Of a DNA stretch of 32,060 bases, positions 1,859 through 30,500 are shown one piece after another. Every line of letters begins with the position of its first letter. Within the stretch, counting starts at the first letter, position 1. Source of the DNA: an uncultured Fidelibacterota bacterium (lineage in GTDB: Bacteria; Fidelibacterota; Marinisomatia; Marinisomatales; TCS55); assembly GCA_950063985.1 (NCBI GenBank), contig CATMBH010000001.1:1-32060 (forward strand), in the 5' to 3' direction. Position numbers and translations under genes: made by a program. The notes beneath the pieces are model-generated. The model ran no database searches. It saw only the letters and a program-made list of their open reading frames with translations, and was not told the origin of the DNA.

Positions 1859-1874
1859 TAATAATTTATATAAG

Positions 1875-4835: not shown

Positions 4836-4970
4836 ATGAAACGAACCTATCAACCCAGTCGACGCGTAAGAAAGAGAAAACACGGATTCAGATCTAGGAT
4901 GAGAAAAAAAAGTGGTAGAAAACTTATTGCCCGAAGAAGAGCAAAAGGAAGAAAAAAAGTATCCACTTAA
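4836..4970 (+). CDS. rpmH: 50S ribosomal protein L34 (missing from the ORF track, 44 aa)
   Basis: Manual translation [44 protein letters not shown]; lies directly upstream of rnpA. Confidence 0.98.
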
Positions 4971-4983
4971 CTAAATCCTAAAA

Positions 4984-5349: not shown

Positions 5350-5352
5350 ATC

Positions 5353-5604
5353 ATGAAACTGATTAATTATTATTTAATATTGTTAATAAAATTTTATAAA
5401 TATTTTATTTCACCTTATTTCCCTTTTAGCTGCAGATATCAACCTACCTGCTCCGAATACTTTATAGATTGCTTAAAACTTAATGGGATTTTAAAAGGTT
5501 TTTTGTTAGGAATAAAAAGAATTTTAAGATGCCATCCAATTAAAGTTTTAGGCGGTAGAAGTGGATTTGATCCTGCGCCTAACTTCAAAAAAGGAAAAAA
5601 ATAA
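5353..5604 (+). CDS. yidD: Membrane protein insertion efficiency factor
   Basis: ISP....[10 protein letters not shown]...RILRCHP....G.DP.P. Confidence 0.96.
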
Positions 5605-9654: not shown

Positions 9655-9661
9655 TAAGCCA

Positions 9662-10447
9662 ATGCCTATCAATGAATTAAAGTTAGCAAGGGAATTGATT
9701 CGTAGACCAAGCGTCACTCCGAGAGATGCTGGTGCAATAAATATTCTAACAAAAAACTTAAGATCACTTGGTTTTAAATGCCAAATGATGAATTTTAACA
9801 ACATTAAAAATCTATATGCAAAACTTGGAACATCATCTCCTAATTTTTGTTTTGCGGGTCATACCGATGTTGTGCCAGTAGGTGATTTAAAATCTTGGTC
9901 GGTAAATCCATTCTCGGGCACTGTAAAAAATAATAAATTAATAGGACGTGGTGCAAGCGATATGAAAGGATCGATTGCTTGTTTTGTAGCCGCTTTAAGT
10001 CAGTTTAAAAAAATAAAACCAAAATTTAAAGGATCAATCAGTCTATTAATTACTGGAGATGAAGAAGCGATTGCAATCAATGGAACAAAAAAAGTTGTTG
10101 AGAAATTAAAAAAAAGAAAAGAAAAAATAAATTTTTGTTTAGTGGGCGAGCCAACAAACTTAACAAAACTTGGTCAGATGATGAAGATAGGTAGAAGAGG
10201 AAGTATCACCGGGTATCTAACGGTTTATGGAACTCAAGGTCACGTTGCTTATCCGCATCAAGCAAATAACCCTGCCCCTGTTATAACAAAAATACTAAAT
10301 CAAATTACAAATATTAAACTTGATAGGGGAACAAAAAACTTTCAACCTTCAAATCTTGAGGTAGTTAAAATTAATATTGAAAATACGGCTGATAACGTAA
10401 TTCCAGCAGAAGCTACGGCAACTTTTAATATTAGATTTAATAATTTA
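9662..10447 (+). pseudogene. dapE: Succinyl-diaminopimelate desuccinylase, truncated at about residue 262 (probably by a chimeric junction)
   Basis: [46 protein letters not shown]. The C-terminal third (TSDARF motif and final metal-binding His) is missing. Confidence 0.9.
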
Positions 10448-10483
10448 ATTAAAACCATAAAATATTACAGAAAAAATAAACCT

Positions 10484-10672
10484 AATAAAGAAATAACAAT
10501 GGATACTCCATATGGTAAAACTTCTGACTCGATAACAATAGGGAATTTTCATGGAACTAATGTTGCATTTATGCCAAGACATGGAAGAAAACATACAATT
10601 CCTCCACATATGATAAACTATCGAGCAAATATGTGGGCTTTCAAAGAATTAGGAGTTAAAAGAATTATTTCC
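10484..10672 (+). pseudogene. mtnP: Internal fragment of S-methyl-5'-thioadenosine phosphorylase, resembling Nitrosopumilus-like archaeal sequences
   Basis: [19 protein letters not shown]....[36 protein letters not shown] carries the TPYG, PRHG and PPH.INYRAN motifs. It lacks the N-terminal GGTG and all sequence after II. Confidence 0.85.
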
Positions 10673-10976
10673 TGATAAAATTTATTTATTTAGTGCGTAC
10701 ATGGAAGATAAGATGGTTGCCGGTGTAGTGAACTTCATTGCGACGGATAATGTGGTATTAGCGTTTTATATAAGCCATGATGAAGATTTCCAGGAAGCGC
10801 GCCCCATTAACTTATTATTCTATAAGGTTTTTGAGTGGGCGATACAGGAAAAGTTTCGTGTATTTGATTTTGGCATTTTTACTGTCAATGAAAAACCCAA
10901 TATGGGGTTGGCCCGGTTTAAGGAAAATTTTGGCGCCAGCGGTCAATTCAGAGATACGCTGGAATTGCATTTATAA
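10653..10976 (+). CDS. C-terminal fragment of a GNAT/FemAB-like acyltransferase
   Basis: The frame is open upstream of the listed ATG ([24 protein letters not shown]) and ends FDFGIFT...[14 protein letters not shown], a FemAB-like GNAT C-terminus. The N-terminus is missing. Confidence 0.75.
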
Positions 10977-14632: not shown

Positions 14633-15534
14633 ACGAGTCACCCACAATAGATATTGTTGTCCCCTGTTACAACGTGGCGCATATTGTTGAGCAATGTGTA
14701 AGCAGTTTACTCAAACAGTCCTACAGTAAAAATGCAATTACTATTTATCTGGTCAATGATGGTTCTTCAGATACAACCGGAGAAATCTTGCAATCATTTT
14801 CACATCATCGACATGTCAAGATTATTCATAATGAAAAAAATAGAGGTTTGTCTGCTGCCCGTAACACAGGGATAAAAGCGGGAGATGGAGAAGTCATTTG
14901 TTTTCTGGACAGCGATATGACGGTTAATTCTGATTGGATTTCTGCTCATCTAAACATATTAGGTAAAAATAATATAGTCGGTGTTCTCGGTGATTCCCAT
15001 TTACCAGAGGGACAACAGCCCAATAAGCTTGATCGTTATTTGTATGATTCACGTAGAGGTGCACGCCGTTTTGGAGAAGGAATCCCAATTCGATTTTCAC
15101 ATTTTTTATTTAATAACACATCCTTAAAGCGCTCAGTATTTGATGTTATAGAACTTTTTGATGAAAATATTACTTCTTATGGGGGAGAAGACACCGAGCT
15201 GGCAATTCGACTTTGGGAAGCATATCCAGATGGGTTGCGTTTTTCATTTTCAGCTGCTTGTGAACATCATCACTCTCGAGAATTAAATGAATTTTGTAAT
15301 TCTATGTATCAATACGGAAAAACTAATTTTCCGTCGTTAATAGAACAGTTTCCCCAGTATTCAGCAGAGTTAGGGGGGGAATGGATAAAATCGATGAAAG
15401 GGCGTATGCTGTTTAATCCAATCATACGCTTGGTTGTATCAAAAACACGTCATATTTGTAGCAGTTATTGGTTATCAAGGTATCAAGTCATTGACGCAGT
15501 AATTAGCGGAGCAAGGTCAGTTTCTCATCGGTAA
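14629..15534 (+). CDS. Glycosyltransferase family 2
   Basis: IVVPCYN, VNDGSSD, NRGLSAARNTG, FLDSD, YGGEDTEL. Confidence 0.93.
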   Translation: MNESPTIDIVVPCYNVAHIVEQCVSSLLKQSYSKNAITIYLVNDGSSDTTGEILQSFSHHRHVKIIHNEKNRGLSAARNTGIKAGDGEVICFLDSDMTVNSDWISAHLNILGKNNIVGVLGDSHLPEGQQPNKLDRYLYDSRRGARRFGEGIPIRFSHFLFNNTSLKRSVFDVIELFDENITSYGGEDTELAIRLWEAYPDGLRFSFSAACEHHHSRELNEFCNSMYQYGKTNFPSLIEQFPQYSAELGGEWIKSMKGRMLFNPIIRLVVSKTRHICSSYWLSRYQVIDAVISGARSVSHR

Positions 15535-15708
15535 CACAGAATTATTTCCCGAAATTTTCTTATTTAATAAAAATGTTGATAAATATCGAATTGTGCTTAA
15601 ATTCAAACGATTTGAAGATATATAACTCAAATCTTAATAAAGATGTAAAAGCAAAACGGGGGCTCAGTGCCTCCTTTTTTACGAATAACCAAACCAAGGA
15701 GGAACATC

Positions 15709-15918
15709 ATGGCTGATGTGAGTTCAACTGTCAATAGTGTCATCGCTGGAATCGTAGGTCTTATTAAAGGCTTAATTGTATTCTTTGTGTTTGCTAACAT
15801 TCTATACTCAACAGGTTTCGATCCTGTTGGTGGCGTAGTTGATTTGGTAAATACATTCCTGGATGGCGGACTAGCTGGATTGTTAGCGCTGCTATTTCTC
15901 GTATCAATGGTGGGATAA
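15709..15918 (+). CDS. Small hydrophobic membrane protein A (69 aa), unknown function
   Basis: Strong Shine-Dalgarno AAGGAGG (15696-15702) before ATG 15709; paralogous to 15996-16208 (shared GLAGLLAL). Confidence 0.85.
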   Translation: MADVSSTVNSVIAGIVGLIKGLIVFFVFANILYSTGFDPVGGVVDLVNTFLDGGLAGLLALLFLVSMVG

Positions 15919-15983
15919 TTAACAGGATGATTTAACAGGGTTCCTTTTGTGAAATTGGAGCCCTGTATCCTGTTAACGTCATC
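15919..15983 (+). promoter_or_regulatory. Structured intergenic RNA element between the two small genes
   Basis: TTAACAGGAT (15919-28) pairs with ATCCTGTTAA (15967-76). ACAGGGTTCC (15935-44) pairs with GGAGCCCTGT (15957-66) with one G-U. Confidence 0.65.
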
Positions 15984-15995
15984 ATAGGAGGAAAT

Positions 15996-16208
15996 ATGAG
16001 TGCTTTCGACAGCGTAAATGAATGGATAGCCAAAATAACCGACCTGCTTAAAACGCTGGTGGTCCTCGGCATCGTCATAGGAATTCTGTTTGATGATCCA
16101 TTTGGCGTGATTGCAGGAGTTGGTAGAATAATGGGACAATTTGGTGACGCGGGTCTTGCTGGCCTGTTGGCACTAATTTTTCTCGTTGCTGTATACAACA
16201 AAAAGTAA
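15996..16208 (+). CDS. Small hydrophobic membrane protein B (70 aa), unknown function
   Basis: Shine-Dalgarno AGGAGG (15986-91); two hydrophobic segments with an amphipathic linker; GLAGLLAL motif. Confidence 0.88.
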   Translation: MSAFDSVNEWIAKITDLLKTLVVLGIVIGILFDDPFGVIAGVGRIMGQFGDAGLAGLLALIFLVAVYNKK

Positions 16209-16234
16209 TCCACAACCAAATATCCATTTGACTT

Positions 16235-16266
16235 ACTGCGCCCCGCAAGCCGGGGCGTAGTTGTTT
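16235..16266 (+). terminator. Intrinsic terminator after the small-protein pair
   Basis: 11 bp stem ACTGCGCCCCG/CGGGGCGTAGT (one G-U) with 5 nt loop, followed by TGTTT. Confidence 0.75.
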
Positions 16267-16419
16267 ATACATACTCCTATTTGTAAACTTTTCATTATTA
16301 ATTCTGCTATATTCTTTCAATTGCATTGGAACAGCAGAGCAAACGTATGCGTTAGCAATTCAAATAATTTTTTAACGCATCATTGTTATCATTAACTTTA
16401 TTAGAATAATTTTCCGCCT

Positions 16420-17907
16420 ATGTTTAAATATAATAAGGCCCTAATTCTTTTTTTCTTTTTGAGTGCCAACCTATCAGCAACAATCCTCGTTGTTAACAGT
16501 GTGGATCAAAAAGAGAATGAACTGCAGGTATTAGACAATACAAAAGCATCTTATGTATCTGCTAAAGATCTATCCAAAGTTCTGACCTCACGATCACCGT
16601 ATGTCAACAAAGAACGCATGAAAATGGTTCTGTATTTTTCAGATACACGCATAAAAATTACCAGTAATTCCAGTTTTGTCCTTGTAGATGAAGAAGTATA
16701 TCATATGCCAATCCATGCCAAGGATGTTGGAGATGACATTTTTCTTCCCGCTGTACCTATTTTCAAGATTTTAAAACAAACTGTTTTACCCGGTTTATCC
16801 TATGATCCCAATAAGCAACGGCTGGATATTGATGTTGTTGAGTTCAATATCACTGATCTTGATATTGAACAAAAAGCGAATGGCACAATTTTAACAATCT
16901 ATACACGGGAACAATTTAAAGAAGGACACATCAGTTCTTTTGAACATGGAAATGGCTGGTTTTATTTAACTATTCAAGATGGGATTGTAGACACAACACG
17001 AATCAACAAAGTTGACACGCGGGGTGTTGTAGCTAAGGTTACCGCTAACCAATTCGCAGAATCTGCCCAGATAGCTTTCCGTCTGCGGTCAGGAATTATT
17101 GGTCATGAAATGTTTCAAAGCCCAGACCCCAATGCCATTGTAATTACACTTAGAACACCATTTGATAAAAGCGCAGGACGCATCCGTACCCTACGTAACC
17201 GCTGGCGGCTGGACACTGTGGTGCTGGATGCTGGTCACGGTGGAAAGGATGGTGGTACCATAGGTAAAAGTGGAACAAGAGAAAAAGATATTGTATTAGA
17301 TATCACTAAACGATTGGGCATGCTGTTAGAGAAAAAAACCAATATTAAAGTCGTTTATACCCGTGAAGAAGATGTATTTATTCCACTGTGGAAGAGAACG
17401 AAAAAAGCTAATGAAAGCAATGGCAAAATATTTGTTAGTATTCATGCAAACGGAAATCCTAATCGAACAGCTAGAGGTTTTGATGTTTTTCTGCTGAACG
17501 AGAGTAAATCAGATGAAGCTATTGAGCTGGCATCGCGGGAAAATGCTGTAATTAAACTAGAAGAACATAGCGGGGATAAATATAAAGAATTAACAGGTGA
17601 AAATCTAATCATGGCTACTATGGCGCAATCTATGTTTATGAAGGAAAGTGAGGAACTAGCGGCCTTAATCCAGGATGAACTGGGCAACCGGCTGGACTCA
17701 CCTAATCGTGGTGTAAAACAAGCGGGCTTTCAAGTATTGGTTGGCGCAAGTATGCCGAATGTTTTAATTGAAACGGGATTCCTTTCGAATCCAACCGATG
17801 AAAAACGCTTAAAACAATCATCATACCGTCAAAAGATTGCTGAAGGAATCTTCAGCGCCATTGTAAAATTTCGCTCTATCAGAGAAGCATTGCTGGCTGA
17901 AGGATAA
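16420..17907 (+). CDS. N-acetylmuramoyl-L-alanine amidase (Amidase_3) with signal peptide
   Basis: VVLDAGHGGKD, EKDIVL, FVSIHAN, MPNVLIETGFLSN. Confidence 0.95.
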   Translation: MFKYNKALILFFFLSANLSATILVVNSVDQKENELQVLDNTKASYVSAKDLSKVLTSRSPYVNKERMKMVLYFSDTRIKITSNSSFVLVDEEVYHMPIHAKDVGDDIFLPAVPIFKILKQTVLPGLSYDPNKQRLDIDVVEFNITDLDIEQKANGTILTIYTREQFKEGHISSFEHGNGWFYLTIQDGIVDTTRINKVDTRGVVAKVTANQFAESAQIAFRLRSGIIGHEMFQSPDPNAIVITLRTPFDKSAGRIRTLRNRWRLDTVVLDAGHGGKDGGTIGKSGTREKDIVLDITKRLGMLLEKKTNIKVVYTREEDVFIPLWKRTKKANESNGKIFVSIHANGNPNRTARGFDVFLLNESKSDEAIELASRENAVIKLEEHSGDKYKELTGENLIMATMAQSMFMKESEELAALIQDELGNRLDSPNRGVKQAGFQVLVGASMPNVLIETGFLSNPTDEKRLKQSSYRQKIAEGIFSAIVKFRSIREALLAEG

Positions 17908-18710
17908 TGTCAGATTCAAGACCTATTGGTGTTTTTGATTCGGGACTGGGCGGCCTGACTGTTGTCAAATCCTTATGTTCTCTCTTACCGAATGAATCCA
18001 TTGTTTATTTTGGTGATACAGCTCGAGTGCCATATGGCAATAAGAGCAAAGAATTGATCCTGGAATACTCCAAAGAAATCACAGATTTTTTGATAAAACA
18101 TGATGCAAAAATGGTTGTAGTAGCCTGCAATACGGCTTCGGCACTGGCGTTAGATGAATTACAGAAACATAGCCCTATACCAGTGCTTGGAGTCATTAAG
18201 CCTGGCGCTACAGAAGCTATTAAAGCGACGAGCAATAATCATATTGGCATCATTGGTACTGTAGCAACAATATCATCAAAAGCGTATGAAAAAGCATTGC
18301 ATGGATTAAACGGGAATATTCAAACGAGCTCACAAGCCTGTCCATTATTGGTTCCCTTGGCCGAAGAAGGCTGGTTGGAGGGCGATGTAGCAAATACCAT
18401 TGTGAATCATTATTTATCACCTTTGAATGATAACAAGATCGATACACTTATTTTGGGTTGTACACACTATCCTCTTTTAAAAGATGTAATCGCAAGCCAA
18501 GTAAATGATGGAACAGTGTTAATTGATTCAGCCGCTGCAGTTGCCAGAGCAGTTAAGAAAAGTCTGTCGGACTCTGATGAACTGAATGACAGCGATGAAA
18601 AGGGAGCACTGACTTGTTTTGTCAGTGATATACCTATGCGTTTTGAATCAGTAGGCCAGCGATTTTTAGGCGCCCCCATGGATCATGTCCAGACAATTCA
18701 TGGCATCTGA
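17907..18710 (+). CDS. murI: Glutamate racemase
   Basis: GVFDSGLGGLTV, DTARVPYG, VACNTAS, LGCTHYP. Confidence 0.98.
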   Translation: MSDSRPIGVFDSGLGGLTVVKSLCSLLPNESIVYFGDTARVPYGNKSKELILEYSKEITDFLIKHDAKMVVVACNTASALALDELQKHSPIPVLGVIKPGATEAIKATSNNHIGIIGTVATISSKAYEKALHGLNGNIQTSSQACPLLVPLAEEGWLEGDVANTIVNHYLSPLNDNKIDTLILGCTHYPLLKDVIASQVNDGTVLIDSAAAVARAVKKSLSDSDELNDSDEKGALTCFVSDIPMRFESVGQRFLGAPMDHVQTIHGI

Positions 18711-19950
18711 TTTCCAGAAACTTCTAAAGGATTTATATAGTTTACAACGTTTAGGAATTAAAACAGGGCTGGAACACACGCAACAATTACTTGATGCATG
18801 TGGAAACCCTCATCATCAATTAAAATTTATCCACTTGGCGGGAACCAATGGAAAAGGGTCAACCGCAGCATTTATCTTATCTATCTTGCGCGCCACTGGG
18901 TTAAAAGTTGGTTTGTATTCGTCACCTCATCTAGTACGGTTCAACGAACGTATTCGGGTGAATGGGGTTCCCATAGCTGATGAAAAGATCGTTGAATATA
19001 TGAAATTATTTTCCGCGGATATTCGACGTATTGAGAGCACATTTTTTGAAACGACATCCGCCATGGCTTTTTGGTACTTTAAGCAAAAAAAAGTCGATGT
19101 TGCTGTTATAGAAACAGGCTTGGGAGGACGGCTGGATTCTACAAATGTAATTGAACCGAAAATTGCTGTCATCACACCTATAAGCATGGACCATAGTGAT
19201 CTCTTGGGAAATGAACTAAAATCTATCGCTCGGGAAAAAGCAGGAATCATTAAAGAAAAAACACCGGTTATCAGTAGTCATCAGGAAAATGCTGTAAAAA
19301 ACGTACTAGTGCAAAAAGCAGCAGAGGTAGATGCGTATTTAATGTTTGTTGATTCACCCACCGATTGCACCATATCAATGGCTGGAACTTTTTTTCGTCA
19401 AGATGATTTAGATTATCAATTAACTCTTATAGGTGAACATCAAGCACAGAATGCATCCTTAGCGGTTGCAGCAGTAAGGGAATTCGGAAGTCCAGTTAAT
19501 GATGATCACATTAGAATTGGTTTACTTAATGCAACTTGGCCAGGGCGATTTCAGGTTTTATCCAACGATCCGCATGTTATTTATGATGTAGCACATAATG
19601 AACAGGGCATCAAGTCTATACTAAAAACTGTAAATAATATATTTGAGAAAAAGCCCATAGGTTTATTTGCACATAAGGAAGATAAAGAATTAGAACTTAT
19701 TGCGAATGTGATACGCGGGAAATTTGGAAAATTATTGGTTATGGACGACGAACAGGGATTATTGATGAGATCAGAAACTTTATCTATGAACTTAAGTAAA
19801 CATGGTATCGCAGCAGAACTGATGAAACGATTTGACGATTTTACATCATATTTACTCAACGGCCACCCCGGTATCATATTTGGTTCACATTACATGGCAA
19901 AACCTGTTTTTGAGCATTTTCAATTTCCCTTTGACACAGGAGTGATTTAG
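18700..19950 (+). CDS. folC: Folylpolyglutamate synthase / dihydrofolate synthase
   Basis: AGTNGKGST, SPHL..FNERI, ETGLGGRLDSTN, WPGRF, DVAHN. Start is 18700 or 18685. Confidence 0.96.
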   Translation: MASDFQKLLKDLYSLQRLGIKTGLEHTQQLLDACGNPHHQLKFIHLAGTNGKGSTAAFILSILRATGLKVGLYSSPHLVRFNERIRVNGVPIADEKIVEYMKLFSADIRRIESTFFETTSAMAFWYFKQKKVDVAVIETGLGGRLDSTNVIEPKIAVITPISMDHSDLLGNELKSIAREKAGIIKEKTPVISSHQENAVKNVLVQKAAEVDAYLMFVDSPTDCTISMAGTFFRQDDLDYQLTLIGEHQAQNASLAVAAVREFGSPVNDDHIRIGLLNATWPGRFQVLSNDPHVIYDVAHNEQGIKSILKTVNNIFEKKPIGLFAHKEDKELELIANVIRGKFGKLLVMDDEQGLLMRSETLSMNLSKHGIAAELMKRFDDFTSYLLNGHPGIIFGSHYMAKPVFEHFQFPFDTGVI

Positions 19951-19958
19951 AGTAATTT
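19931..19958 (+). promoter_or_regulatory. Putative sigma70 promoter for rho, overlapping the folC 3' end
   Basis: Perfect TTGACA (19931-36), 16 bp spacer, TAATTT (19953-58). Confidence 0.5.
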
Positions 19959-20052
19959 CAACGCTGTAAGCGCCTGCTCCCGCAGGGGCATCACTTTTTA
20001 GACAAATTTTAAAATTCAACTTTAACACATATTCAATTGGAGTTATTTATAT

Positions 20053-21300
20053 ATGGATGTTAATCAATTACAATCCTTGAACATAAAAGAGTTGGCAAAA
20101 GTGGCCCAGGATCTAGAAATCGCGGGTTATTCCGGTTTGAATAAACAGGAATTGATTGTCAACATATTGGAAACACAAAATGAAAAAGAAGGTGTTTTAC
20201 ACTCCAAGGGTGTTCTAGAAGTATTAAATGAAGGCTACGGTTTTCTGCGCAGCCCCGATTTTAACTATTTACCCGGTCCCGATGACATTTATGTAAGCCC
20301 TTCACAGATCAAGCGCTTCGGCCTGCGAACGGGTCATTCTGTATATGGACAGATTCGTAAACCGAAGGATAAAGAACGGTTTTATGCACTGTTAAAAATG
20401 GAAACTGTGAATGACAAAAGTCCGGATCATGTCAAACAGACAATCCTTTTTGATAAACTGACCCCGCTTTATCCTGAAGAAAAATTCAACCTCGAATTTG
20501 ATCCGAAAGACTTATCTACTCGAATCATGGATCTTATTTCACCCATCGGCAAAGGTCAACGTGGACTGATTGTTGCTCAGCCTAAAACGGGTAAAACGAT
20601 ATTACTGCAGAAAATAGCTAATGCACTTTTGAAAAATCATCCAAAGGTAAAATTAATCATTTTACTTATTGATGAACGTCCTGAAGAAGTCACAGACATG
20701 AAACGTCATGTGGATGCTGAAGTGGTCAGTTCAACATTTGACGAACCTCCGGAACGGCACGTGGCTGTGGCAGACATGGTCCTGCAGAAAACAAGACGCA
20801 TGGTGGAATACGGCGATGATGTAGTTATCCTGCTTGACAGTTTGACGCGCTTGGGAAGAGCCCATAATGCAGTTATTCCCCACAGTGGAAAGATTCTTTC
20901 CGGGGGCGTGGATTCCAATGCACTGAAAAAGCCAAAACAATTTTTTGGAGCAGCTCGGAATACTGAAGAAAGCGGCAGTCTGACAATTATTTCTACCGCT
21001 CTCATTGATACTGGCAGCCGCATGGACGAAGTAATCTTCGAAGAGTTTAAAGGTACCGGCAATATGGAATTGGTGTTGGACCGACGCTTAAGCGATCGTA
21101 GGGTTTATCCTTCCTTTGATATAATCCGCTCTGGGACAAGAAAAGAAGAATTATTGTTGGATAAAAAAATATTAGCGCGCATGTGGATACTGCGAAAACT
21201 GCTTAATGAGATGAATGTTATTGAAGCCATGGAGTTTATGCTGACGAGGATGAAGCGAACAAAATCGAATGAAGAATTTATGGAAACAATGAGCCAGTAA
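20053..21300 (+). CDS. rho: Transcription termination factor Rho
   Basis: [62 protein letters not shown]. Confidence 0.99.
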
Positions 21301-21360
21301 GTTTAATTTCAACTGAAAGGTGTAGAACTTTTTAATATATTTAGCTTATGAGGTATATAT

Positions 21361-22350
21361 ATGGAATATAGCAGTCCTCCAATTCGGACAGTTATTGCTC
21401 GAATAATAACTGATAAACCAGTTAGAAAAACACCTTATCAAGTCAAAGGTGTCTTTATGCGCCAGTTCCCTGATTTAGAGATTGTGCCAATGATGGATGG
21501 TACGTTTAGAGACCGATTTTTGTACCCCCGTGTTCAGATTAAAATACTGAATGAGCAAGTATATATGATTGGAATTCATGAAGGTGTAGATCCTATCGTT
21601 GAATTAGCTGGGCGGTTGGATATTTTAGATTTTGGGAACATTACTTTTCAAGTGTTTGATACGGAAGTAAATGTAAAAGATGACCAGTTCAAAGCTGTTG
21701 ATCGGTTAATTCGTTATCGCTTATTGACACCGTGGGTGGCCTTGAATCAGATGACAGGCAGCCGCTATCGATTTTTGAATAACAATGAGCGTATCGGGTT
21801 TTTGAACCGTTTGCTAGGACAAAATATTGTTTTTTTATCCCGGGAAATGGGAGTAGAACTTCAGGACAAAATTTTCACAAAAGTAAATTTGACATCTATG
21901 TTTCCTAAACCGGTAGATGAACGTAACTGGGGAGCTTTTTCTGGAGAATTTAGAACTAATTTTCTTCTACCAAATTACTTGGGTATTGGCAACGGTATTA
22001 CACGTGGTTATGGTGCTGTGTACGGGATGTTTAACCCACAATCGTTTCAGTTTGATGAAACCAGTCTACGAGAACAGAATAAAGATGGAGCTCAATCTCA
22101 ATCTGAAGGTATGGCTGTATCAGAGTTAGAAGGAGTAACTGTAGAAGATGTTCCAAAACCTAAACGACACATAGCCAAAAAGCGTAAAACGAAAAAAAGA
22201 ACAAAAAAAGTGCTGACAGAGGAATTTGACATTGTGGAAAATAAAGTTCCTGTGCTTCCAGAACCAAAGCAGGATAAAAAAGAATATATTAATCCTGAAG
22301 ACGACAAATTTAACAGTCCCGAATTTCATAAAAAGCAGCACAAACTTTAA
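21361..22350 (+). CDS. Stand-alone Cas6b-like RAMP protein with ~105 aa C-terminal low-complexity extension
   Basis: LYPRVQIK (cf. YP..QYK), Y...TPWVALNQ, L..LL.QNI..LS...G, F.GEF.TNFLLPNYLGIGNGITRGYG (Cas6 glycine-rich loop). No CRISPR array or other cas gene in the window. Confidence 0.8.
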   Translation: MEYSSPPIRTVIARIITDKPVRKTPYQVKGVFMRQFPDLEIVPMMDGTFRDRFLYPRVQIKILNEQVYMIGIHEGVDPIVELAGRLDILDFGNITFQVFDTEVNVKDDQFKAVDRLIRYRLLTPWVALNQMTGSRYRFLNNNERIGFLNRLLGQNIVFLSREMGVELQDKIFTKVNLTSMFPKPVDERNWGAFSGEFRTNFLLPNYLGIGNGITRGYGAVYGMFNPQSFQFDETSLREQNKDGAQSQSEGMAVSELEGVTVEDVPKPKRHIAKKRKTKKRTKKVLTEEFDIVENKVPVLPEPKQDKKEYINPEDDKFNSPEFHKKQHKL

Positions 22351-23562
22351 GTGACTCCCCAAACTGTAAAACTGGCGTCCCGGGTTGCGCGGATAAAGCC
22401 TTCGTTTACCCTGGAAATGGCTACGAAGGCTGCTGAAATGAGATCCCAAGGAATTGATGTGATTAATTTCAGTGTTGGTGAACCTGATTTCAACACACCG
22501 GAACACATCATTGCAGCCGGGAAAGCAGCCATGGACGCTGGCTTCACAAAGTATACAGCCGGCCCCGGGATGATTGAGCTGCGCCAAGCCATTTGTGAAA
22601 AACTTAAACGTGAAAATGGTTTAGAATACACACCTTCTGAAATCCTCGTTTCCAATGGTGAAAAGCAAAGTTTATATAATGCCTGTCAGGTATTGTTTGA
22701 TAAAGGAGATGAAGTCATTATCTTTGTTCCCTACTGGGTATCTTTCCCTGAATTTGTACGCCTTGCAGATGCTGAACCGGTTTTAATTGATACACTACCC
22801 GATAAACAATTTGAAGCAGATTTTGACGATCTTGAAAAAAAGATAACACCTGCAATAAAAGGTGTGATAGTCAATTCACCTTCAAATCCTACGGGTGGGG
22901 TATGGGGGGTAAAGGCCTTGATCCGCTTATTGAAAATGGCTGTGCAGCATGACTGGACCGTGATTTCAGATGAATGTTATGAACGTCTGGTGTTTGATGG
23001 AGAATTTATCAGTATAGAAAAGCTTAATCGTGACCATAATATAGGTGCTCGAGTTGTTACCTGTTTGAGTCTTTCTAAAACTTACGCCATGACAGGCTGG
23101 CGAATCGGATATGCAGCTGGGAATGAAATAATCATAAAGGCAATGAGTAAGATACAAGGTCAGTCAACGTCCTGCGCAAATTCGATTGGACAGCGGGCCG
23201 GTATCGCTGCTTTAACAGGTGATCAGCAGCCTGTAGAAGACATGCGCATACAATTCAGAGAGCGCCGTGATCTGATGGTTAAGCTGTTAAATGACATACC
23301 AAGGGTCTCCTGTGCAACACCTGGAGGGGCCTTTTATACATTCCCAAATTTTTCTGAATATATTGGGAAAAAAGCAAATGGAAAAGTTATTCAGGATTCT
23401 TTCGACCTGAGTGAATATATATTAACTTCGGAGGCTGTAGTCACGGTACCTGGAGATGGTTTTGGTGCACCGGGGCATATAAGATTTTCGTGTGCCACAG
23501 ATAAAGAGACGATAAAACGAGGTTTATCGAAGGTGGCAAGCGTTTTAGAAAAATTAATTTAA
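22351..23562 (+). CDS. PLP-dependent aminotransferase class I/II (aspartate aminotransferase-like)
   Basis: GEPDFNTP, NSPSNPTG, SDECY, SLSKTYAMTGWRIGY, GAFY. Confidence 0.95.
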   Translation: MTPQTVKLASRVARIKPSFTLEMATKAAEMRSQGIDVINFSVGEPDFNTPEHIIAAGKAAMDAGFTKYTAGPGMIELRQAICEKLKRENGLEYTPSEILVSNGEKQSLYNACQVLFDKGDEVIIFVPYWVSFPEFVRLADAEPVLIDTLPDKQFEADFDDLEKKITPAIKGVIVNSPSNPTGGVWGVKALIRLLKMAVQHDWTVISDECYERLVFDGEFISIEKLNRDHNIGARVVTCLSLSKTYAMTGWRIGYAAGNEIIIKAMSKIQGQSTSCANSIGQRAGIAALTGDQQPVEDMRIQFRERRDLMVKLLNDIPRVSCATPGGAFYTFPNFSEYIGKKANGKVIQDSFDLSEYILTSEAVVTVPGDGFGAPGHIRFSCATDKETIKRGLSKVASVLEKLI

Positions 23563-23574
23563 AGGGGTTTTATA

Positions 23575-23781
23575 ATGAAACAGGGAATACATCCCGACTA
23601 TATACTTGGCAAGGTACATTGTGCCTGTGGACATACATTTGAAGTATACAGTACTTTGGGTGACCAGCGGATCGATATCTGCTCAGTCTGTCATCCTTTC
23701 TTTTCAGGAAAGCAGAAACTGGTAGACACAGCTGGTCGTATTGAAAAATTTAGAGAGAAATACGCCAAAGCAGCCCAGTAA
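23575..23781 (+). CDS. rpmE: 50S ribosomal protein L31, zinc-binding type
   Basis: [36 protein letters not shown]. Confidence 0.98.
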
Positions 23782-23796
23782 CTAAACAAAAAGTAT

Positions 23797-23840
23797 AATG
23801 GCTCCGGGAACAGGTATATCCTTTTTGGAGCCATTTTTTT
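23797..23840 (+). terminator. Intrinsic terminator-like hairpin after rpmE
   Basis: AATGGCTCC (23797-805) pairs with GGAGCCATT (23827-35), with extra internal pairing and a following T run. Confidence 0.75.
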
Positions 23841-23868
23841 GTCTATGAAACACTTGATATTAACCATA

Positions 23869-24807
23869 ATGAAACCATCCATCCTTGTTGGCGGTCAAGC
23901 CGTCATTGAAGGTGTAATGATGCGCGTGCCGGGAGCCTATGCCACGGCTGTGCGCGATCCTGAAGGAAAGGTTCACGTGGATAAACATGATTTCACATCG
24001 CGAGTGCAAACATCAGGTTTCTGGAAAAGACCCATCCTGCGGGGTATAATGGCTTTATTCGAATCCATGAAAATGGGAATGAAAACTTTACAGTGGTCAG
24101 CGGATATTGCTATGCCTGAGGAAGCAGAAAAACAACCTGGCAAACTTGCAAGTTTGTTTTCAACATTATTTGCTGTTTTATTAGCCGTCAGCATGTTTGT
24201 TGTGGCTCCTTTAGGGCTAACTACATGGCTTTTGGATATTGAAACAGATGCATTGGTTTTTAACCTGATTTCAGGATTATTCCGCATATCTTTTTTTATT
24301 CTGTATTTATTGGCTATATCCATGATGAAAGATGTAAAACGTCTATTTCGCTACCATGGGGCGGAGCATCGTGTTGTATTCAACTTTGAATCCGGACAAG
24401 ATGTTAATGTTGATAACGCACAATCTTTCTCTACATATCATCCCCGCTGCGGGACAAGTTTTATGTTCATTGTACTTTTATCAGCTATCCTTGTGTTTGC
24501 CTTGATAGACACAATTGTTATGGCCATATTTGGTGAAATCACCATTTTTCATCGCTTGGCCTTTCATCTGCCGCTGATGCCACTGGTTGCAGGAATTTCC
24601 TATGAGATTATTAAAATAACAGCCCGTAAAGATGAATCATTGTTCTTTAGGTCTTTACGTGCGCCGGGATTGTGGTTGCAGCGCATTACGACACAACCAC
24701 CCGAAGATGATATGGTGGATGTGGCCATCACTGCATTGCAAAGTGCCTTTGGCGATAAATATAATGAAATGATTGGCAAGGAATACACAGCTGAGGCTAT
24801 CGGGTGA
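23869..24807 (+). CDS. DUF1385 membrane protein
   Basis: [38 protein letters not shown]; usual neighbour of rpmE/prfA/prmC. ATG 23869 is preferred as the start. Confidence 0.93.
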
Positions 24808-25865
24808 AAGATAAAATAGAAACAGTCATTGCCCGCCATGAAGAATTAAACAATTTATTAGCAGATCCTGCTGTTGTGAATGATCATGACAAGTTAAAAG
24901 AAACAGCACAGGAACATAGTCAATTAGCTCCAATTGTACTCAAAGGACAGGAATATTTAGTGGTACTACAGCATTTAGCTGATGATGAAGAAATCCTTGC
25001 AGGGGATGATGATGAATTAAAAGAAATCGCACAGGAAGAATTATCTGGACTTAAGGGGAAAAAAGTCAAATTGGAAAATGAATTAAAATTCATGCTTCTA
25101 CCAAAAGATCCTAATGATAACAAAAATACCATTGTTGAAATTCGGGCCGGAACAGGCGGCGATGAGGCAGCATTATTTGCAGCAGACCTCTATCGTCTTT
25201 ATAGACGGTTTGCTGAACGCAATAGCTGGAAATGTGAAGTGATGGCAATGAATGATACCGGGATTGGCGGTTATAAAGAGGTCATTTTTTCAATTAAGGG
25301 TAATGGCGCTTACGGACTCATAAAATATGAAAGCGGTGTGCACCGTGTTCAGCGCGTTCCCAAAACAGAGTCTGGTGGGCGAGTACACACATCAGCTGCA
25401 ACTGTGGCCGTACTTCCTGAGGCAGAAGAAGCAGAAATTGAAATAAATGAAGGCGATTTGAAAATTGATACATTCCGGGCCAGCGGTGCCGGCGGACAGC
25501 ACGTCAATAAAACAGAATCAGCCATTCGTATTACACACATTCCATCAGGTTTAGTTGTCTCTTGCCAGGATGAAAAATCGCAGCATCAGAATAGGATATT
25601 AGCTATGAAAGTGTTGCGCTCAAGATTGTTGGCTCAAGAACAAGAACGATTAGCTCAAGAACGTGCTAATACACGAAAGTCCATGGTTTCTACCGGTGAT
25701 AGGTCAGTAAAGATTCGCACATACAATTTCCCCCAAGGGCGAATTACAGATCACCGCATCAATTATACTGCCTATAACCTTGAAAGTGTAATGGATGGAG
25801 ATATTTCTGAATTAATTGAACAGTTAAAATTGTCGGAACAGCAGGAACAGCTGTCTGGCGATTAA
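24804..25865 (+). CDS. prfA: Peptide chain release factor 1
   Basis: [19 protein letters not shown] (PxT motif), [24 protein letters not shown]. Confidence 0.98.
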
Positions 25866-26729
25866 ATGGTCACTGTCCCCCAAGACGGCCAAATCACAAA
25901 CTGGCTGCACTGGTCAGCTGCAGAACTTGTACATTCACTAGAAGACAATAAACAGGAAGCCGAGTGGCTTTTATCGTCTTTATTAAATTGTTCTAAATCT
26001 GAATTATATCTTCAGAAAAATGAACTTTCTAAAGAGCAATGTGAACTGTTCCAAGATTGGATCAGCAGGCGTATAAAGGGCGAGCCCGCACAATATATAG
26101 CCGGTTGGACTGAATTTTATGGCCACCGTTTTAATGTAAACAAATCTGTTCTAATACCCCGAGCTGAAACTGAAATATTGGTAGATGTAGCTATTTATAC
26201 ACTCCAGGAATTAGAAAAACATCAGATCGTAGATATTGGTACAGGATCTGGGTGTATTGCCATTTCTGTGGCAGCTGAAATTCCCTCTGCGAGTGTTCTG
26301 GGGTTGGATATATCTCCGGAAGCATTGGTAACAGCTGAAGAGAATGCCTCTATAAACAAACTATTAAATGTGCAATTTTTACAAACAGACTTCTTACAGT
26401 TTACGCCCTCCGAGCCCGTATACGATGGCTTACTCATGAACCCGCCGTATATTCCAACAAATGAGATGGATACACTAATGAAAGAAGTCCGTGATTATGA
26501 GCCCGATCTGGCATTAACGGATCATGAAGATGGCTTAACGTTCTACAGGCACTTGGCTGACACGGCTCAAAAATGGGTGCATCCTGGCGGCTGGCTCATT
26601 TTGGAAGTAGGTCTTGGTGAACACCCGCAAAAAGCCACCGCTTGTTTTGATACTAAAGGGTTTGCTCAATTGGAGCTTATTGCTGATTTTAATACAGATG
26701 ATCGCATCCTCAAAGTGCAGGTGGTATGA
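25866..26729 (+). CDS. prmC: Release factor glutamine methyltransferase
   Basis: GEP.QYI.G, VLIPRAETE, DIGTGSGCIA, NPPYI; follows prfA. Confidence 0.96.
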   Translation: MVTVPQDGQITNWLHWSAAELVHSLEDNKQEAEWLLSSLLNCSKSELYLQKNELSKEQCELFQDWISRRIKGEPAQYIAGWTEFYGHRFNVNKSVLIPRAETEILVDVAIYTLQELEKHQIVDIGTGSGCIAISVAAEIPSASVLGLDISPEALVTAEENASINKLLNVQFLQTDFLQFTPSEPVYDGLLMNPPYIPTNEMDTLMKEVRDYEPDLALTDHEDGLTFYRHLADTAQKWVHPGGWLILEVGLGEHPQKATACFDTKGFAQLELIADFNTDDRILKVQVV

Positions 26730-27571
26730 AAATGCTCTGGCACCACATAGAACTTCTACGCCCCTTAAACTTGCTTACCTCGGCCCTTGCCATGGTGGTC
26801 TGCGCCAGCATTATGGATGGACTGCATGAAACGAAGATACTTTTGGTTACTATCTTCGTAGTGGTTTGTTATAATGCCGCTGCCAATGCCTATAATGATG
26901 TAATGGATTATAAAACGGACGTGGTTAATCGTCCGCGGCGCCCCTTGGTAACAGGGCAAGTAAAAATAAAAATGGCAAGGGCCATTGCCATATTACTGTT
27001 TGTAATTGGCAGCGTGTTGACTTTAGAACTTAGTAAATCAGCACAGTTTATCGCCATTGGCCTGGCCCTCCCCACCATGATCATTTACAGCAAATTCCTG
27101 AAGGGTACTCCTTTAATTGGTAATGCCGTTGTGGCTATTATCTTGGGCTTGGCGTTTATTTTCTCCGGTGCTGCTTTTGGTCAAATAGAAACCATGATCA
27201 TACCATCATGTTTAGCCTTTGGACTCACCTTTCTCCGAGAGTTTGTTAAAGACATGGCAGATATTGAAGGCGACTCAAAAGCAGGTTTAAATACATTTCC
27301 TACAAAAGTCGGATTAGAAAAATCTGCAAAATTCGCAATTGTTTCAGCATTGATTATTGGAGCTGGAGCTCTTTTCCCTTATTTAAACGGTTATTACGAT
27401 ATCCCTTATTTGGTTGTCCTTTTTTTAGGAGTAGAAATACCTTTGTTAATGATTGTATTTTCATTCCTGAAATCGCCTGAAATTGATCAGGCAAAACGAT
27501 TTTCCGAGGTATTAAAATTCAGTACAATCGCAGGATTAATGGCTTTTTTCGTAGATAATTATGTCCGCTGA
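26726..27571 (+). CDS. UbiA family prenyltransferase, DGGGP-synthase-like
   Basis: RP.N, NDVMDYKTDVVNRPRRPLVTG, YSKFLKGTPLIGN, REFVKDMADIEGD...G..T.P. Confidence 0.85.
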   Translation: MKMLWHHIELLRPLNLLTSALAMVVCASIMDGLHETKILLVTIFVVVCYNAAANAYNDVMDYKTDVVNRPRRPLVTGQVKIKMARAIAILLFVIGSVLTLELSKSAQFIAIGLALPTMIIYSKFLKGTPLIGNAVVAIILGLAFIFSGAAFGQIETMIIPSCLAFGLTFLREFVKDMADIEGDSKAGLNTFPTKVGLEKSAKFAIVSALIIGAGALFPYLNGYYDIPYLVVLFLGVEIPLLMIVFSFLKSPEIDQAKRFSEVLKFSTIAGLMAFFVDNYVR

Positions 27572-30500
27572 GTTTGTCCATTTACACAACCATTCAGACT
27601 ACAGTCTATTAGACGGCGCTCAAACCGTCCAGACATTGGTGAATACCATCGATGATCTGAAAATGGATTCGGTGGCGCTCACTGAACATGGCAATATGTT
27701 TAGTGTAGTCCCCTATTATAAATCAGCGAAAAAAGCCGGTGTAAAACCCATTATTGGCTGTGAGATCTACGTCGCCCATGGTAGCCGTTTTGATAAGAAA
27801 CCACGGGCAGAAGGTGGATGGGGCAATAATCATCTCATTTTACTGGCCCAGAATTTCGCCGGATATCGCAACCTGATGAAATTGGTTACAATTGGCTATT
27901 TAGAAGGATTCTATTATCGTCCCCGCATTGATAAAGAATTACTAAAAGAACACAGTGAAGGTCTTATTTGTTCATCAGGTTGTTTAAAAGGGGAAGTGCC
28001 GGAAAAACTGTTAGCAGGAGATTGGGAAGGTGCCAAAGCAACCGCACTGGAATTTGCCGAAATGTTCCCAGGGCGATATTATCTAGAAATTCAAAATCAT
28101 GGCATTGATGCCGAAGTGCGTAATGTGGAATTGATAACCAAACTGGCCCGAGAATTGGATTTGCCGCTTGTTGCCACTAATGATGCCCACTATGCCAAAC
28201 ATGAACATTGGGAAGCCCATGATATACATATCTGTCTCGGCACCGGCAAGGAAAGGGATGACCCCAATCGCCTGCGCTATGCCACACCGGAGTTTTACTT
28301 CAAGACACAGGATGATATGTATAAACTGTTCAAGGATTATCCAGATGCTTTGGAAAATACACGCAAAATCGCTGACAGCATCGATCTTGAACTACCTATG
28401 GGTAAATATCATTTACCTACATTTCCTATACCGGAAGACGCACCCTCCCAAAACCCTAATGAGTATTTGCGGTATTTATGTGATGAAGGTGTTCGGAATA
28501 TTTATGGAGACATCACAACGGATCTGCAGGGCCGATTGGATCATGAATTAGACGTAATCCAGAAAATGGGTTTTGCAGGATATTTTTTAATAACAATGGA
28601 TTTTGTGAAATATGCAAAAGACAATGGTATACCTGTGGGTCCAGGCAGGGGTTCTGCTGCTGGAAGCCTGGTGTCTTATGCTCTGGATATAACGACCATA
28701 GATCCGATGAGGCATAACCTGCTGTTTGAACGATTTCTAAATCCGGATCGTATCAGCCTCCCAGACATTGACATCGATTTTTGTATTGAGCGTCGGGGTG
28801 AGGTCATCGATTATATTAAACAGCAATACGGTGATAATTCTGTAACACAGATTATTACATTTGGAAAAATGAAAGCACGCCAAGCTGTACGAGATGTAGG
28901 CCGTGTCCTTGGTTTTTCGTTTGGGGAGGTTGACAAAGTAGCCAAAATGATTCCTATAGGGCCATTTGTAACTTTGCAGCAGGCCTTGAGCCAAAGTCCT
29001 GATATGCGGGAAGCTGCCGAAGGAAAATATAAGGAGTTGATAGACCATGCCCTGACTCTTGAAGGTATGAACCGCCACGCATCCACACATGCTGCCGGTG
29101 TTGTAGTCACACCAGGAGATTTAACAGACTTTACACCGCTGTTCAAAACAAACACGGGCGATATTACCAGTCAGTATGATATGAAAGGACTGGAAGCACT
29201 AGGATTGTTAAAAATGGATTTCCTTGGCCTTCGAAATTTGACTGTGATCGATCACACGATTAAGCTGTTGAAGCAACGTGGTGTAAAAATCGACATTGCC
29301 AAAATTGACATGGAAGATTCCTCGGTGTATAAACTATTTGCTAATGGAATAACTACAGGTGTTTTCCAGTTTGAATCTTCCGGTATGCGCGAATTCCTGA
29401 AAAAATTGAAACCCACCCAGATTGAAGACCTAATTGCCATGAATGCATTATACCGTCCGGGCCCCATGGAAAATATCGATAATTTTATCAAACGCAAGCA
29501 CGGCAAGAAAAAGATCACCTATATCCATCCTGCCCTTGAGCATATTTTAGAAGAGACCTACGGTATTATCGTTTACCAGGAACAAGTCATGCAGATTGCC
29601 CACGAAATTGCCAAGTTTAGTCTTGCTGAAGCGGACATCATGCGCCGTGCAATGGGTAAAAAGATAAAAGAGCTCATGGATGAAATGAAAACGGAGTTCA
29701 TTAATGGAGCGATAGCAAACGGCATCAACCGTAAAATAGCCGAAGACATTTATACCTTGATCGAAAAATTTGCGAAATATGGATTTAACAAAAGTCACTC
29801 CACAGCCTATGCATATGTAGCCTACCAAACGGCTTGGTTGAAGACCCATTATCCTGCGGAATTTATGGCAGCAAACCTCACCAGTGAAATGTCTAACATT
29901 GACCGGGTGGTAATTTTGATCAATGAATGCACAAAACTAAAGATCACTGTGGATGCTCCGGATGTAAATGTATCTGATATTCATTTTCACCCTGTAAATA
30001 AAAAAACAATCTCTTTTGGATTAAATGCAATTAAAAATGTAGGAGCTAAAGCGCTTGAACATATCTTGGAAACACGTGATAAAGACGGCCCTTTTGAATC
30101 CCTGTTAGATTTCACCTCACGTGTTGGTCTGCGAGTGGTCAATAAAAAGGTATTAGAAAGTCTTATTATGGCCGGTGCCATGGACAGCCTAGCAGGCACA
30201 AGGGCGGAAAAATTTGCTACAATCGATATTGCCTTAAAATACGGCCAGCAGATCCAGGAAAACAGACATCGTAACCAGGAAGATCTTTTTGGCCAAGCAT
30301 CCAACGGCCATTCCGCAATGATCCCAGCGTTAGTTAGCGCTGAAAGCTGGACAGACAGTGTTTCCCTGCAGAAGGAAAAAGAGGTTTTGGGTTTATACCT
30401 CTCCGGTCATCCGCTTTTGAAATATGCCGAAGACCTGGAAGAATTCAGCAATTTTGACTTCACTGAAAATGTAGAAGAATTAAAACGGGAGACTGTCCGT

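What the first reader, a model, noticed from the sequence alone, without database searches (positions are those of the whole stretch)
21361..22350. Orphan Cas6b-like gene embedded in the rho-rpmE-prfA housekeeping cluster, with no CRISPR array or other cas genes
Seen: the first ~220 aa carry the Cas6b-type motifs in order (LYPRVQIK, TPWVALNQ, NFLLPNYL-GIGNGITRGYG, with the G-loop at 21982-22014). The gene starts 60 bp after rho and its stop directly abuts the GTG of the aminotransferase (22350/22351). There is no repeat-spacer array, cas gene or mobile element in the ~10 kb on either side. Established: Cas6 normally matures crRNA, and rho-rpmE-DUF1385-prfA-prmC is a widespread core cluster. 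Inference: this may be a domesticated Cas6 reused as a housekeeping RNA-binding or RNA-processing factor linked to termination or translation. It is the strongest candidate for an undescribed system in this window.
Basis: partly seen in the sequence, partly recalled or inferred. Interest (0 to 1): 0.82.

Follow-up and report, generated by a model that had tools for sequence, protein, structure and literature searches.

The report
CRISPR-free Cas6b partnered with Rho
This gene encodes a relative of the CRISPR RNA-cutting enzyme Cas6b that lacks both catalytic histidines, is conserved like a core gene and sits directly behind the transcription terminator gene rho across the ocean phylum SAR406 (Marinisomatota), mostly in genomes without detectable cas genes, and it likely serves as an RNA-binding partner of Rho rather than in immunity.

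Summary
Observation confirmed. ORF 21361-22350 is a true Cas6b-fold protein: both Pfam domains pass their cut-offs, and the best structural match is Cas6b 4z7k.

In a 151-genome phylum sample, 72 genomes carry it, and 58 of those 72 show no cas1, cas5 or type III RAMP gene. It follows rho in 161 of 161 loci that also hold rho. It forms one clade apart from CRISPR-type Cas6b and largely tracks the Rho tree. Its core has dN/dS 0.04, close to Rho's 0.03.

The catalytic His-x-His is missing in 80 of 80 rho-linked copies and present in 19 of 19 other Cas6b from the same phylum. Several lineages lost the gene cleanly, so it is dispensable.

Domestication is well supported (about 0.9); the mechanism is inferred. 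Best reading: a non-cutting, RNA-binding Rho cofactor (0.45), for which a Rho co-fold gave weak support only. Rivals are an RNA regulator that does not touch Rho and a His-less housekeeping RNase. My literature searches did not find it in print. This scan found the same family before on 7 other genomes.

The parts
21361..22350 (+). Rho-linked Cas6b-like gene (329 aa)
21382..21681 (+). N-terminal RAMP domain (Cas6b_N, residues 8-107)
   Evidence: Pfam PF17955 39.1 bits; high pLDDT
21487..21495 (+). Pro-Met-Met in place of the catalytic His-Asn-His (M. maripaludis H38/H40)
   Evidence: alignments to 4z7k; column counts
21700..22020 (+). C-terminal RAMP domain (Cas6b_C, residues 114-220)
   Evidence: Pfam PF17262 86 bits
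21982..22014 (+). Glycine-rich loop; all four Gly kept, but the Lys invariant in CRISPR-type Cas6b is Asn
22036..22347 (+). Charged, low-confidence tail with short conserved motifs; found only in this order
   Evidence: pLDDT 51-86; tail of 60 aa or more in 57 of 57 order loci and 0 of 23 others; dN/dS 0.18
22309..22341 (+). Conserved C-terminal motif F/Y-N-x-x-E-x-H-x-K; candidate partner-binding motif (inferred)
   Evidence: 47 of 57 order loci by regex; the 10 misses carry near variants
20053..21300 (+). rho, the invariant upstream neighbour
19930..19958 (+). Promoter-like TTTG-N19-TAATTT upstream of rho; resembles the Bacteroidota -33/-7 promoter (recalled); present in carriers and non-carriers
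   Evidence: pattern in 82 of 121 carrier and 9 of 15 non-carrier leaders, 7% in shuffles; it overlaps the folC coding end
21304..21325 (+). TAATTT box just after the rho stop, plus the AGGTGTAG motif; candidate internal promoter and leader site, confined to one subclade
   Evidence: GTGTAG in 39 of 79 rho-cas6 spacers (shuffles 0.9) against 0-1 in four other spacers; box in 37 of 52 motif-bearing and 10 of 76 other carriers
22351..23562 (+). Class I/II aminotransferase; usual but separable downstream neighbour
23575..23781 (+). rpmE (ribosomal protein L31), followed by DUF1385, prfA and prmC

Best explanation
This is a Cas6b-fold protein that lacks its catalytic histidines and is inherited next to rho without CRISPR, and it likely acts as a non-cutting, RNA-binding cofactor that is predicted to contact Rho and would tune Rho-dependent termination. 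SHOWN: the fold; loss of His-x-His; one clade; rho adjacency; purifying selection near Rho's level; presence in genomes without detectable cas genes; clean loss in some lineages. INFERRED: one ancestral recruitment of a CRISPR Cas6b into the rho-aminotransferase junction; co-transcription with rho; loss of cleavage; retained RNA binding through a remodelled set of conserved basic residues; physical contact with Rho, which would gate or redirect Rho loading on certain transcripts, as Rof, Hfq or NusG do in E. coli. The order-specific tail would add a further partner-binding motif.
For: Domestication (about 0.9 on its own). 72 of 151 phylum genomes carry the gene; 58 of the 72 have no cas1, cas5 or RAMP match. 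Within the order, 48 of 61 carry it and 7 of those 48 have cas1. The rho-linked rows form one side of a branch at 100/99 support against 19 other Cas6b, and at 98 when 128 library representatives are added. G070, G073 and G081 carry both kinds, with the His-bearing copy in a type I-B operon. Core dN/dS median is 0.039 (14 pairs) against Rho 0.027 and the aminotransferase 0.07. 20 of 48 splits are shared with the Rho tree (shuffles 0.19; patristic r 0.81). Loss of catalysis: His is absent at both columns in 80 of 80 rho-linked copies and present in 19 of 19 others; the H38A/H40A double mutant loses most activity (PMC3479195, passages). Link to Rho: adjacent in 161 of 161 loci, whereas the downstream junction is broken in 16 loci from at least 5 lineages (one search lists 17, but L053 is a BLAST overlap artefact). 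Co-fold with Rho: weak support, score 0.37 against best control 0.00. The mark was reached by 116 of 157 solved complexes and 2 of 215 mismatches; at 0.60 or under, by 18 of 157 and by both mismatches. The runs agree in at least 46% of contacts and partner pLDDT is at least 69. RNA binding: K/R kept at positions 29, 144 and 215 (100%), 50, 57, 61, 137 and 150 (91-93%) and 14 (90%). No Hfq over the cut-off in any of 151 genomes.
Against: The co-fold pass is in the weak band, which the tool calls more often wrong than right unless the guess was likely beforehand; my paired alignments were not part of its calibration. Some Cas6 enzymes cut RNA without histidines, using Lys/Arg networks (SsoCas6, PMC3652601, passages), so catalysis is not excluded. 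No RNA target was found. Rho shows no residue that cleanly separates carriers from non-carriers. The core is less basic than CRISPR-type Cas6b (median net charge +3 against +9), and four basic positions invariant there (27, 101, 186, 211) are lost, so RNA binding may be weakened. Adjacency could reflect dependence on the rho promoter alone. The gene was not found in 79 of 151 genomes. 5 of 24 strong splits conflict with the Rho tree.
Confidence: 0.45

Rival explanations
1. A domesticated, non-cutting, sequence-specific RNA-binding regulator or chaperone that does not touch Rho. It would bind a site in its own operon mRNA or in other transcripts and control their translation or stability.
For: Cas6 folds recognise short RNA motifs (established knowledge). 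The GTGTAG motif is kept just upstream of, and sometimes inside, the ribosome-binding site in 39 of 79 spacers, although synonymous sites are saturated between these lineages. Hfq was not found in the phylum sample.
Against: The motif is confined to one subclade of the order. Rho leaders fold no better in carriers than in non-carriers (median z -0.2 against 0.3). This reading does not explain the 0 against 5 or more junction breaks.
Confidence: 0.22
2. A His-less but active housekeeping endoribonuclease that uses a Lys/Arg network, as SsoCas6 does, to process mRNA or stable RNA, possibly handing products to Rho.
For: The G-loop glycines are intact and K/R is kept at positions 29, 50, 57 and 215. 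Crenarchaeal Cas6 cuts without His (PMC3652601). Cas6 active sites are plastic.
Against: The His pair is kept in 113 of 121 rows of the sister group but lost in the whole rho-linked clade, together with the G-loop Lys and, in most copies, the Tyr equivalent to Y47 (Phe in 74%). No substrate was found.
Confidence: 0.2
3. A passenger: the gene has a housekeeping role unrelated to Rho and stays behind rho only because it uses the rho promoter.
For: rho-aminotransferase-rpmE is a stable cluster even in non-carriers (8 of 15 directly adjacent). Rho is unchanged between carriers and non-carriers.
Against: The rho junction is never broken in 161 loci, while the aminotransferase detaches at least 5 times. 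One subclade has a candidate promoter of its own. The co-fold gives weak support.
Confidence: 0.09
4. An ordinary trans-acting Cas6 that matures crRNA from arrays elsewhere in the genome.
For: Type III systems often use Cas6 in trans (PMC12669027, passage). 14 of 72 carriers have cas genes. Single-contig G084 holds a 9-repeat array with no cas1, cas2, cas5 or RAMP match. MAGs often lose arrays.
Against: 60 of 72 carriers lack class 1 effector markers. Single-contig G017 and G148 and two-contig G010 show no array by the TTGAAA pattern and no cas2. Carriers with type I-B systems encode a separate His-bearing Cas6b. The catalytic His pair is absent, and inheritance is vertical.
Confidence: 0.04

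Closest known systems
Cas6b of type I-B CRISPR-Cas (Methanococcus maripaludis Cas6b, PDB 4z7k/4z7l; Pfam PF17955 + PF17262)
   Same: Tandem RAMP fold, YPxxQ, WxxL, FxGxF and G-loop motifs; 27% identity; top sequence and structure hit.
   Different: No H38/H40 pair, G-loop Lys to Asn, no cas operon or array, fixed position after rho, vertical single-copy inheritance, and a ~105 aa tail in one order.
SsoCas6 (Sulfolobus solfataricus), a His-less but active Cas6
   Same: No catalytic histidine and a set of conserved basic residues (PMC3652601, passages).
   Different: SsoCas6 processes crRNA within CRISPR-Cas and belongs to another subfamily (11-13% identity).
Non-catalytic P. furiosus Cas6 paralogue (PDB 3ufc)
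   Same: Cas6 fold described as non-catalytic (PMC3652601, passage); Foldseek rank 10.
   Different: It comes from a CRISPR-bearing archaeon and is not known as a phylum-wide rho neighbour.
Rho-binding regulators Rof (YaeO), Hfq, YihE, Psu and NusG
   Same: Functional analogy only: proteins that bind Rho and change termination (PMC12360218, passages).
   Different: Unrelated folds. That review has 0 mentions of Cas6, and Rho binding is only weakly predicted here.
Exapted Cas components (solo Cas4; array-less derived modules in Streptomyces and Haloarchaea)
   Same: Cas proteins found outside adaptive immunity (PMC8730458 passages; PMC5704561 start of abstract).
   Different: The cases I read concern defence, mobile elements or multi-gene modules. 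None is a lone Cas6 fixed in a core transcription operon.

Membership tests
Cas6b protein family | Cas6b_N and Cas6b_C profiles above the curated cut-offs | tested here: met
   39.1/25 and 86/39.4 bits
Cas6b protein family | Tandem RAMP fold with a C-terminal glycine-rich loop | tested here: met
   AlphaFold mean pLDDT 85.7; Foldseek 4z7k E 6.8e-18, TM 0.78 by target length
Cas6b crRNA endoribonuclease (type I-B) | Catalytic His pair (H38/H40) | tested here: not met
   0 of 80 rho-linked against 19 of 19 other Cas6b (mapping)
Cas6b crRNA endoribonuclease (type I-B) | Encoded with cas8b-cas7-cas5-cas3, or with an array | tested here: not met
   No array pattern in the rho-linked loci among L031-L103; neighbours are housekeeping genes
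Cas6b crRNA endoribonuclease (type I-B) | A class 1 CRISPR effector elsewhere in the same genome | tested here: not met
   60 of 72 carriers lack cas5 and RAMP matches; 58 of 72 also lack cas1. TIGR02593 misses type I-E (E. coli control negative), and most genomes are drafts.
Cas6b crRNA endoribonuclease (type I-B) | Cleaves repeat RNA, leaving an 8-nt 5' handle | not testable with these tools
   needs an in vitro assay
His-less active Cas6 (SsoCas6 type) | Basic-residue network at the active site that supports cleavage | tested here: inconclusive
Rho-binding regulators (Rof/Hfq/NusG-like role) | Direct binding to Rho | tested here: inconclusive
   Weak co-fold support, 0.37 against best control 0.00; 116 of 157 solved and 2 of 215 mismatched pairs pass; at least 46% contact agreement; partner pLDDT at least 69
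Rho-binding regulators (Rof/Hfq/NusG-like role) | Changes Rho-dependent termination | not testable with these tools
   needs a termination assay

The most novel reading that the evidence does not exclude
A CRISPR RNA-processing enzyme was captured once, near the root of Marinisomatota, and became a dedicated Rho cofactor: an RNA-reading adaptor that docks on Rho and selects which transcripts are terminated, in a phylum where Hfq was not found. I know of no other Cas protein built into the core transcription machinery.
Probability: 0.4. Interest if true: 0.92.

Novelty: new variant of a known kind. Interest (0 to 1): 0.78.

Why it matters
The exaptation cases I read concern defence, mobile elements or the regulation of cas loci. 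A lone Cas6 held under Rho-level constraint in a core operon across an abundant ocean phylum would be a case of an immune protein turned housekeeping factor. If it binds Rho, it adds a new structural class of termination regulator outside Proteobacteria, testable with two purified proteins. Practically, databases already label these proteins 'CRISPR-associated endonuclease Cas6', which could inflate CRISPR counts in SAR406 genomes.

Tried and rejected
1. CRISPR repeat remnants as a target. Six repeats from control loci gave only short 13-17 nt matches in G000 and the rho loci. Rfam found nothing at E up to 1 in 15000-28000.

2. A carrier-specific hairpin in the rho leader. Fold z-scores were alike in carriers and non-carriers; the terminator-like stem at 19975-19990 is not conserved in sequence beyond close kin.

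3. The abundant RNA at about 15670-16190 as a non-coding target. It encodes two small membrane proteins, and its intercistronic hairpin also occurs in non-carriers G065, G171, G089, G161, G047 and G120 (the carrier labels printed there are wrong, and I read them).

4. A conserved upstream ORF in the rho-cas6 spacer. The ATG is not conserved. A full -33 element for an internal promoter was matched in only 6 of 128 carriers.

5. Rho residues co-varying with carriage. No clean separation.

6. Expression. RNA contigs of 4 runs cover the gene at low depth, and one bridges rho and the gene (X2, 21234-21635). Contigs cannot show strand, level or a single transcript, so I did not use this as support.

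7. A diverged copy after rho in non-carriers. No profile hit better than E 0.069 in 15 loci.

8. Viral carriage. None in viral contigs.

9. Context of the deep members P0143 and P0139. Not found.

10. The tail in the ESM Atlas. Only unnamed clusters under 0.9.

11. NCBIfam. No match.

12. The Cas6b-RNA structure paper was not available, so RNA-contact residues were not mapped.

Full report
OBSERVATION. Residues 8-107 match Cas6b_N (39.1 bits, cut-off 25) and residues 114-220 match Cas6b_C (86 bits, cut-off 39.4). The only significant PDB sequence hit is M. maripaludis Cas6b 4z7k (E 1.2e-26; E 3e-46 with the family profile). An AlphaFold model (mean pLDDT 85.7; core blocks above 90, tail 51-86) returns 4z7k first, followed by other Cas6 structures. 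The neighbours are amiA, murI, folC, rho, the gene, an aminotransferase, rpmE, DUF1385, prfA and prmC. No array was found in the window or in G000, which is 64.6% complete. G000 has one Cas6b_C match and no cas1, cas5 or RAMP match.

DISTRIBUTION. Named relatives are Marinimicrobia, Neomarinimicrobiota, Fidelibacterota or 'FCB group'; one 90% cluster member is labelled Lentisphaeria, probably in error. 57 of 61 close genomes match, including 44 of 45 high-quality ones, nearly always once. In an even phylum sample of 151 genomes at least 88% complete, plus G000, 84 match. I fetched the loci: 72 genomes carry the rho-linked form and 12 carry only another Cas6b. Of the 72, 48 are in the order, 8 elsewhere in the class and 16 in other classes. 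G175 lies at a contig edge and G093 is split in two frames. The gene was not found in family f12 (0 of 13; 0.8-1.1 Mb genomes), f17 (0 of 5), f29 (0 of 5) or most of f23, f25 and f27. In 15 non-carriers, rho runs directly into the aminotransferase in 8, with a ~550 nt gap in 1 and other genes in 6, and no remnant is detectable. With a single clade, this reads as one ancient insertion and several clean losses (inference). Sister phyla were not sampled. No viral carrier was found.

LINK TO RHO. rho is directly upstream in 161 of 161 loci that hold both genes (one search counts 160; the exception, L140, has a split rho whose last piece is adjacent). Some genomes appear twice among these loci. The downstream junction is broken in 16 loci from at least 5 lineages (f2, f15, f4, f21 and f25/f30), with 4 more loci at contig edges; L053 was dropped as a BLAST overlap artefact. 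A promoter-like TTTG-N19-TAnnTT precedes rho in 82 of 121 carrier leaders (7% in shuffles), so the gene would be second in the operon (inference; the resemblance to Bacteroidota promoters is recalled).

INDEPENDENCE FROM CRISPR. Among the 72 carriers, 14 have cas1, 5 have cas5 and 10 have type III RAMPs. The union is 14, so 58 have none, and 60 lack class 1 effector markers. Within the order the figures are 7, 2 and 3 of 48. The cas5 profile misses type I-E, and draft genomes lose arrays. Of four near-closed carriers tested, G017, G148 and G010 show no array by a TTGAAA pattern and no cas2, but G084 has a 9-repeat orphan array; G081 served as a positive control. G070, G073 and G081 carry both the rho-linked gene and a separate His-bearing Cas6b in a type I-B operon.

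EVOLUTION. In an IQ-TREE of 72 rows, the 53 rho-linked proteins form one side of a branch (100/99), and the order and class come out as groups (the tool warns that long branches meet at this split). With 128 full-length rows from the top 150 library representatives added, the His-less group still stands apart at SH 98 from 121 rows, 113 of them His-x-His. The tree is unrooted. Derivation from CRISPR Cas6b is inferred from the His being shared with P. furiosus Cas6 and from the group being confined to one phylum. Against the Rho tree of the same 51 genomes, 20 of 48 splits are shared (shuffles 0.19). 18 of 24 strong splits recur and 5 conflict, mostly at long-branch rows. Pairwise dN/dS medians, for pairs with dS under 1.5, are: core 0.039 (14 pairs), tail 0.18 (7), Rho 0.027 (13) and aminotransferase 0.07 (10). 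Within the order the core's dN about equals Rho's; over the phylum its tree is 2.7 times longer.

ACTIVE SITE. M. maripaludis Cas6b needs H38 or H40; the double mutant loses most activity and Y47A reduces it (PMC3479195, passages). His-Asn-His is present in 19 of 19 non-rho Cas6b from this phylum. 10 of them sit beside cas8b, cas7 or cas3, 1 near cas4, and 8 have no confirmed cas neighbour. His is absent from both columns in 80 of 80 rho-linked proteins (rows L036, L068, L070 and L094 were left out as edge, duplicate or split). The loop is replaced by a conserved P-x-x-D/N-G-x-x-R. The G-loop Lys becomes Asn (91%), and the Y47 equivalent is mostly Phe. Basic positions invariant in the controls (27, 101, 186, 211) are lost and new ones are fixed (R14, R57, R150); net core charge falls from +9 to +3. 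The surface is thus remodelled and under strong constraint. SsoCas6 cuts RNA without His (PMC3652601, passages), so inactivity is likely but not shown.

TAIL AND SPACER. A tail of 60 aa or more is present in 57 of 57 order loci and 0 of 23 deeper ones, with short conserved motifs, chiefly at the C-terminus. It is a later addition. A GTGTAG motif lies in 39 of 79 rho-cas6 spacers (shuffles 0.9; 0-1 in four other spacers), usually after a TAnnTT box. It is confined to one subclade, so it is a lead for autoregulation and not a phylum-wide feature.

MECHANISM. Rho is controlled by bound proteins such as Rof, YihE, Hfq and Psu (PMC12360218, passages). Hfq was over the cut-off in 0 of 151 genomes. 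A co-fold of Rho and the full protein gave weak support: 0.37 against a best control of 0.00. The mark was reached by 116 of 157 solved complexes and 2 of 215 mismatches; at 0.60 or under, by 18 of 157 and by both mismatches. Runs agree in at least 46% of contacts, partner pLDDT is at least 69, and no interface was given. My paired alignments lie outside the tool's calibration. With the one-sided gene linkage, I put a Rho-contacting, non-cutting RNA-binding cofactor at 0.45. The rivals are an RNA regulator without Rho contact (0.22), a His-less RNase (0.2), a passenger (0.09) and trans-acting crRNA processing (0.04). No RNA target was found.

KNOWN OR NEW. It is a member of the Cas6b protein family but fails the defining tests of a type I-B crRNA endonuclease. 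Full-text searches found no description: Cas6 with Marinimicrobia (1 unrelated paper); Cas6 with exaptation or stand-alone; orphan, solo, standalone or isolated Cas6; Cas6 with Rho or domestication; and Cas6 with Fidelibacterota, SAR406 or Marinisomatota (none of the 12 listed of 21 papers mentions Cas6). Passages of two reviews (PMC8730458; PMC12669027) and of a crRNA-biogenesis review (PMC5965381) do not mention it. Their supplements were not read, subscription journals are mostly outside the library, and Pfam or UniProt notes were not seen. This scan reported the same family on 7 other genomes. I had recorded my reading before that look-up and count those notes as no independent evidence. 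Verdict: real; a new variant of a known kind; interest 0.78.

Noticed in passing
window 1-10600: Likely chimeric contig. The left third is 24-35% GC, below almost all contigs of G000, and the 90% cluster of the gene at 2681-3922 holds a Pelagibacteraceae protein. The ORF at 9662-10675 joins a truncated M20 peptidase (dapE-like) to a phosphorylase fragment, which marks a probable misjoin near 10450-10700.
   Followed up: partly
window 15709-15918 and 15996-16208 (+): Two small paralogous hydrophobic ORFs (69 and 70 aa) with strong ribosome-binding sites and no Pfam family over cut-off. RNA contigs here have depth 350-2500 against 2-20 elsewhere in four marine metatranscriptomes (contigs only). 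Conserved upstream of amiA in the order, including genomes that lack the Cas6-like gene. ESM Atlas look-alikes at 0.94-0.95 are unnamed, partly viral clusters. Worth its own study.
   Followed up: partly
window 15919-15976 (+): Long intercistronic hairpin between the two small ORFs (-33.8 kcal/mol, z -5.0); hairpins of varying sequence recur in most of 38 related loci.
   Followed up: partly
window 19975-19990 (+): Terminator-like stem with a U-tract in the rho leader; possible attenuator, conserved in sequence only among close kin.
   Followed up: partly
L245:1430-2070 (G084): Orphan 9-repeat type I-B-like array in a single-contig genome with no cas1, cas2, cas5 or RAMP match.
   Followed up: partly
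L070:5004-5611 (G093): The rho-linked gene is split into two frames: a pseudogene or an assembly error.
   Followed up: no
L140:3618-5189: rho is interrupted by about 315 nt after residue 330; an insertion or an assembly gap.
   Followed up: no
L080, L081, L082, L083, L086: His-bearing Cas6b copies with no cas neighbour recognised by NCBIfam among the few ORFs scanned; may be type III-associated or other solo copies.
   Followed up: no
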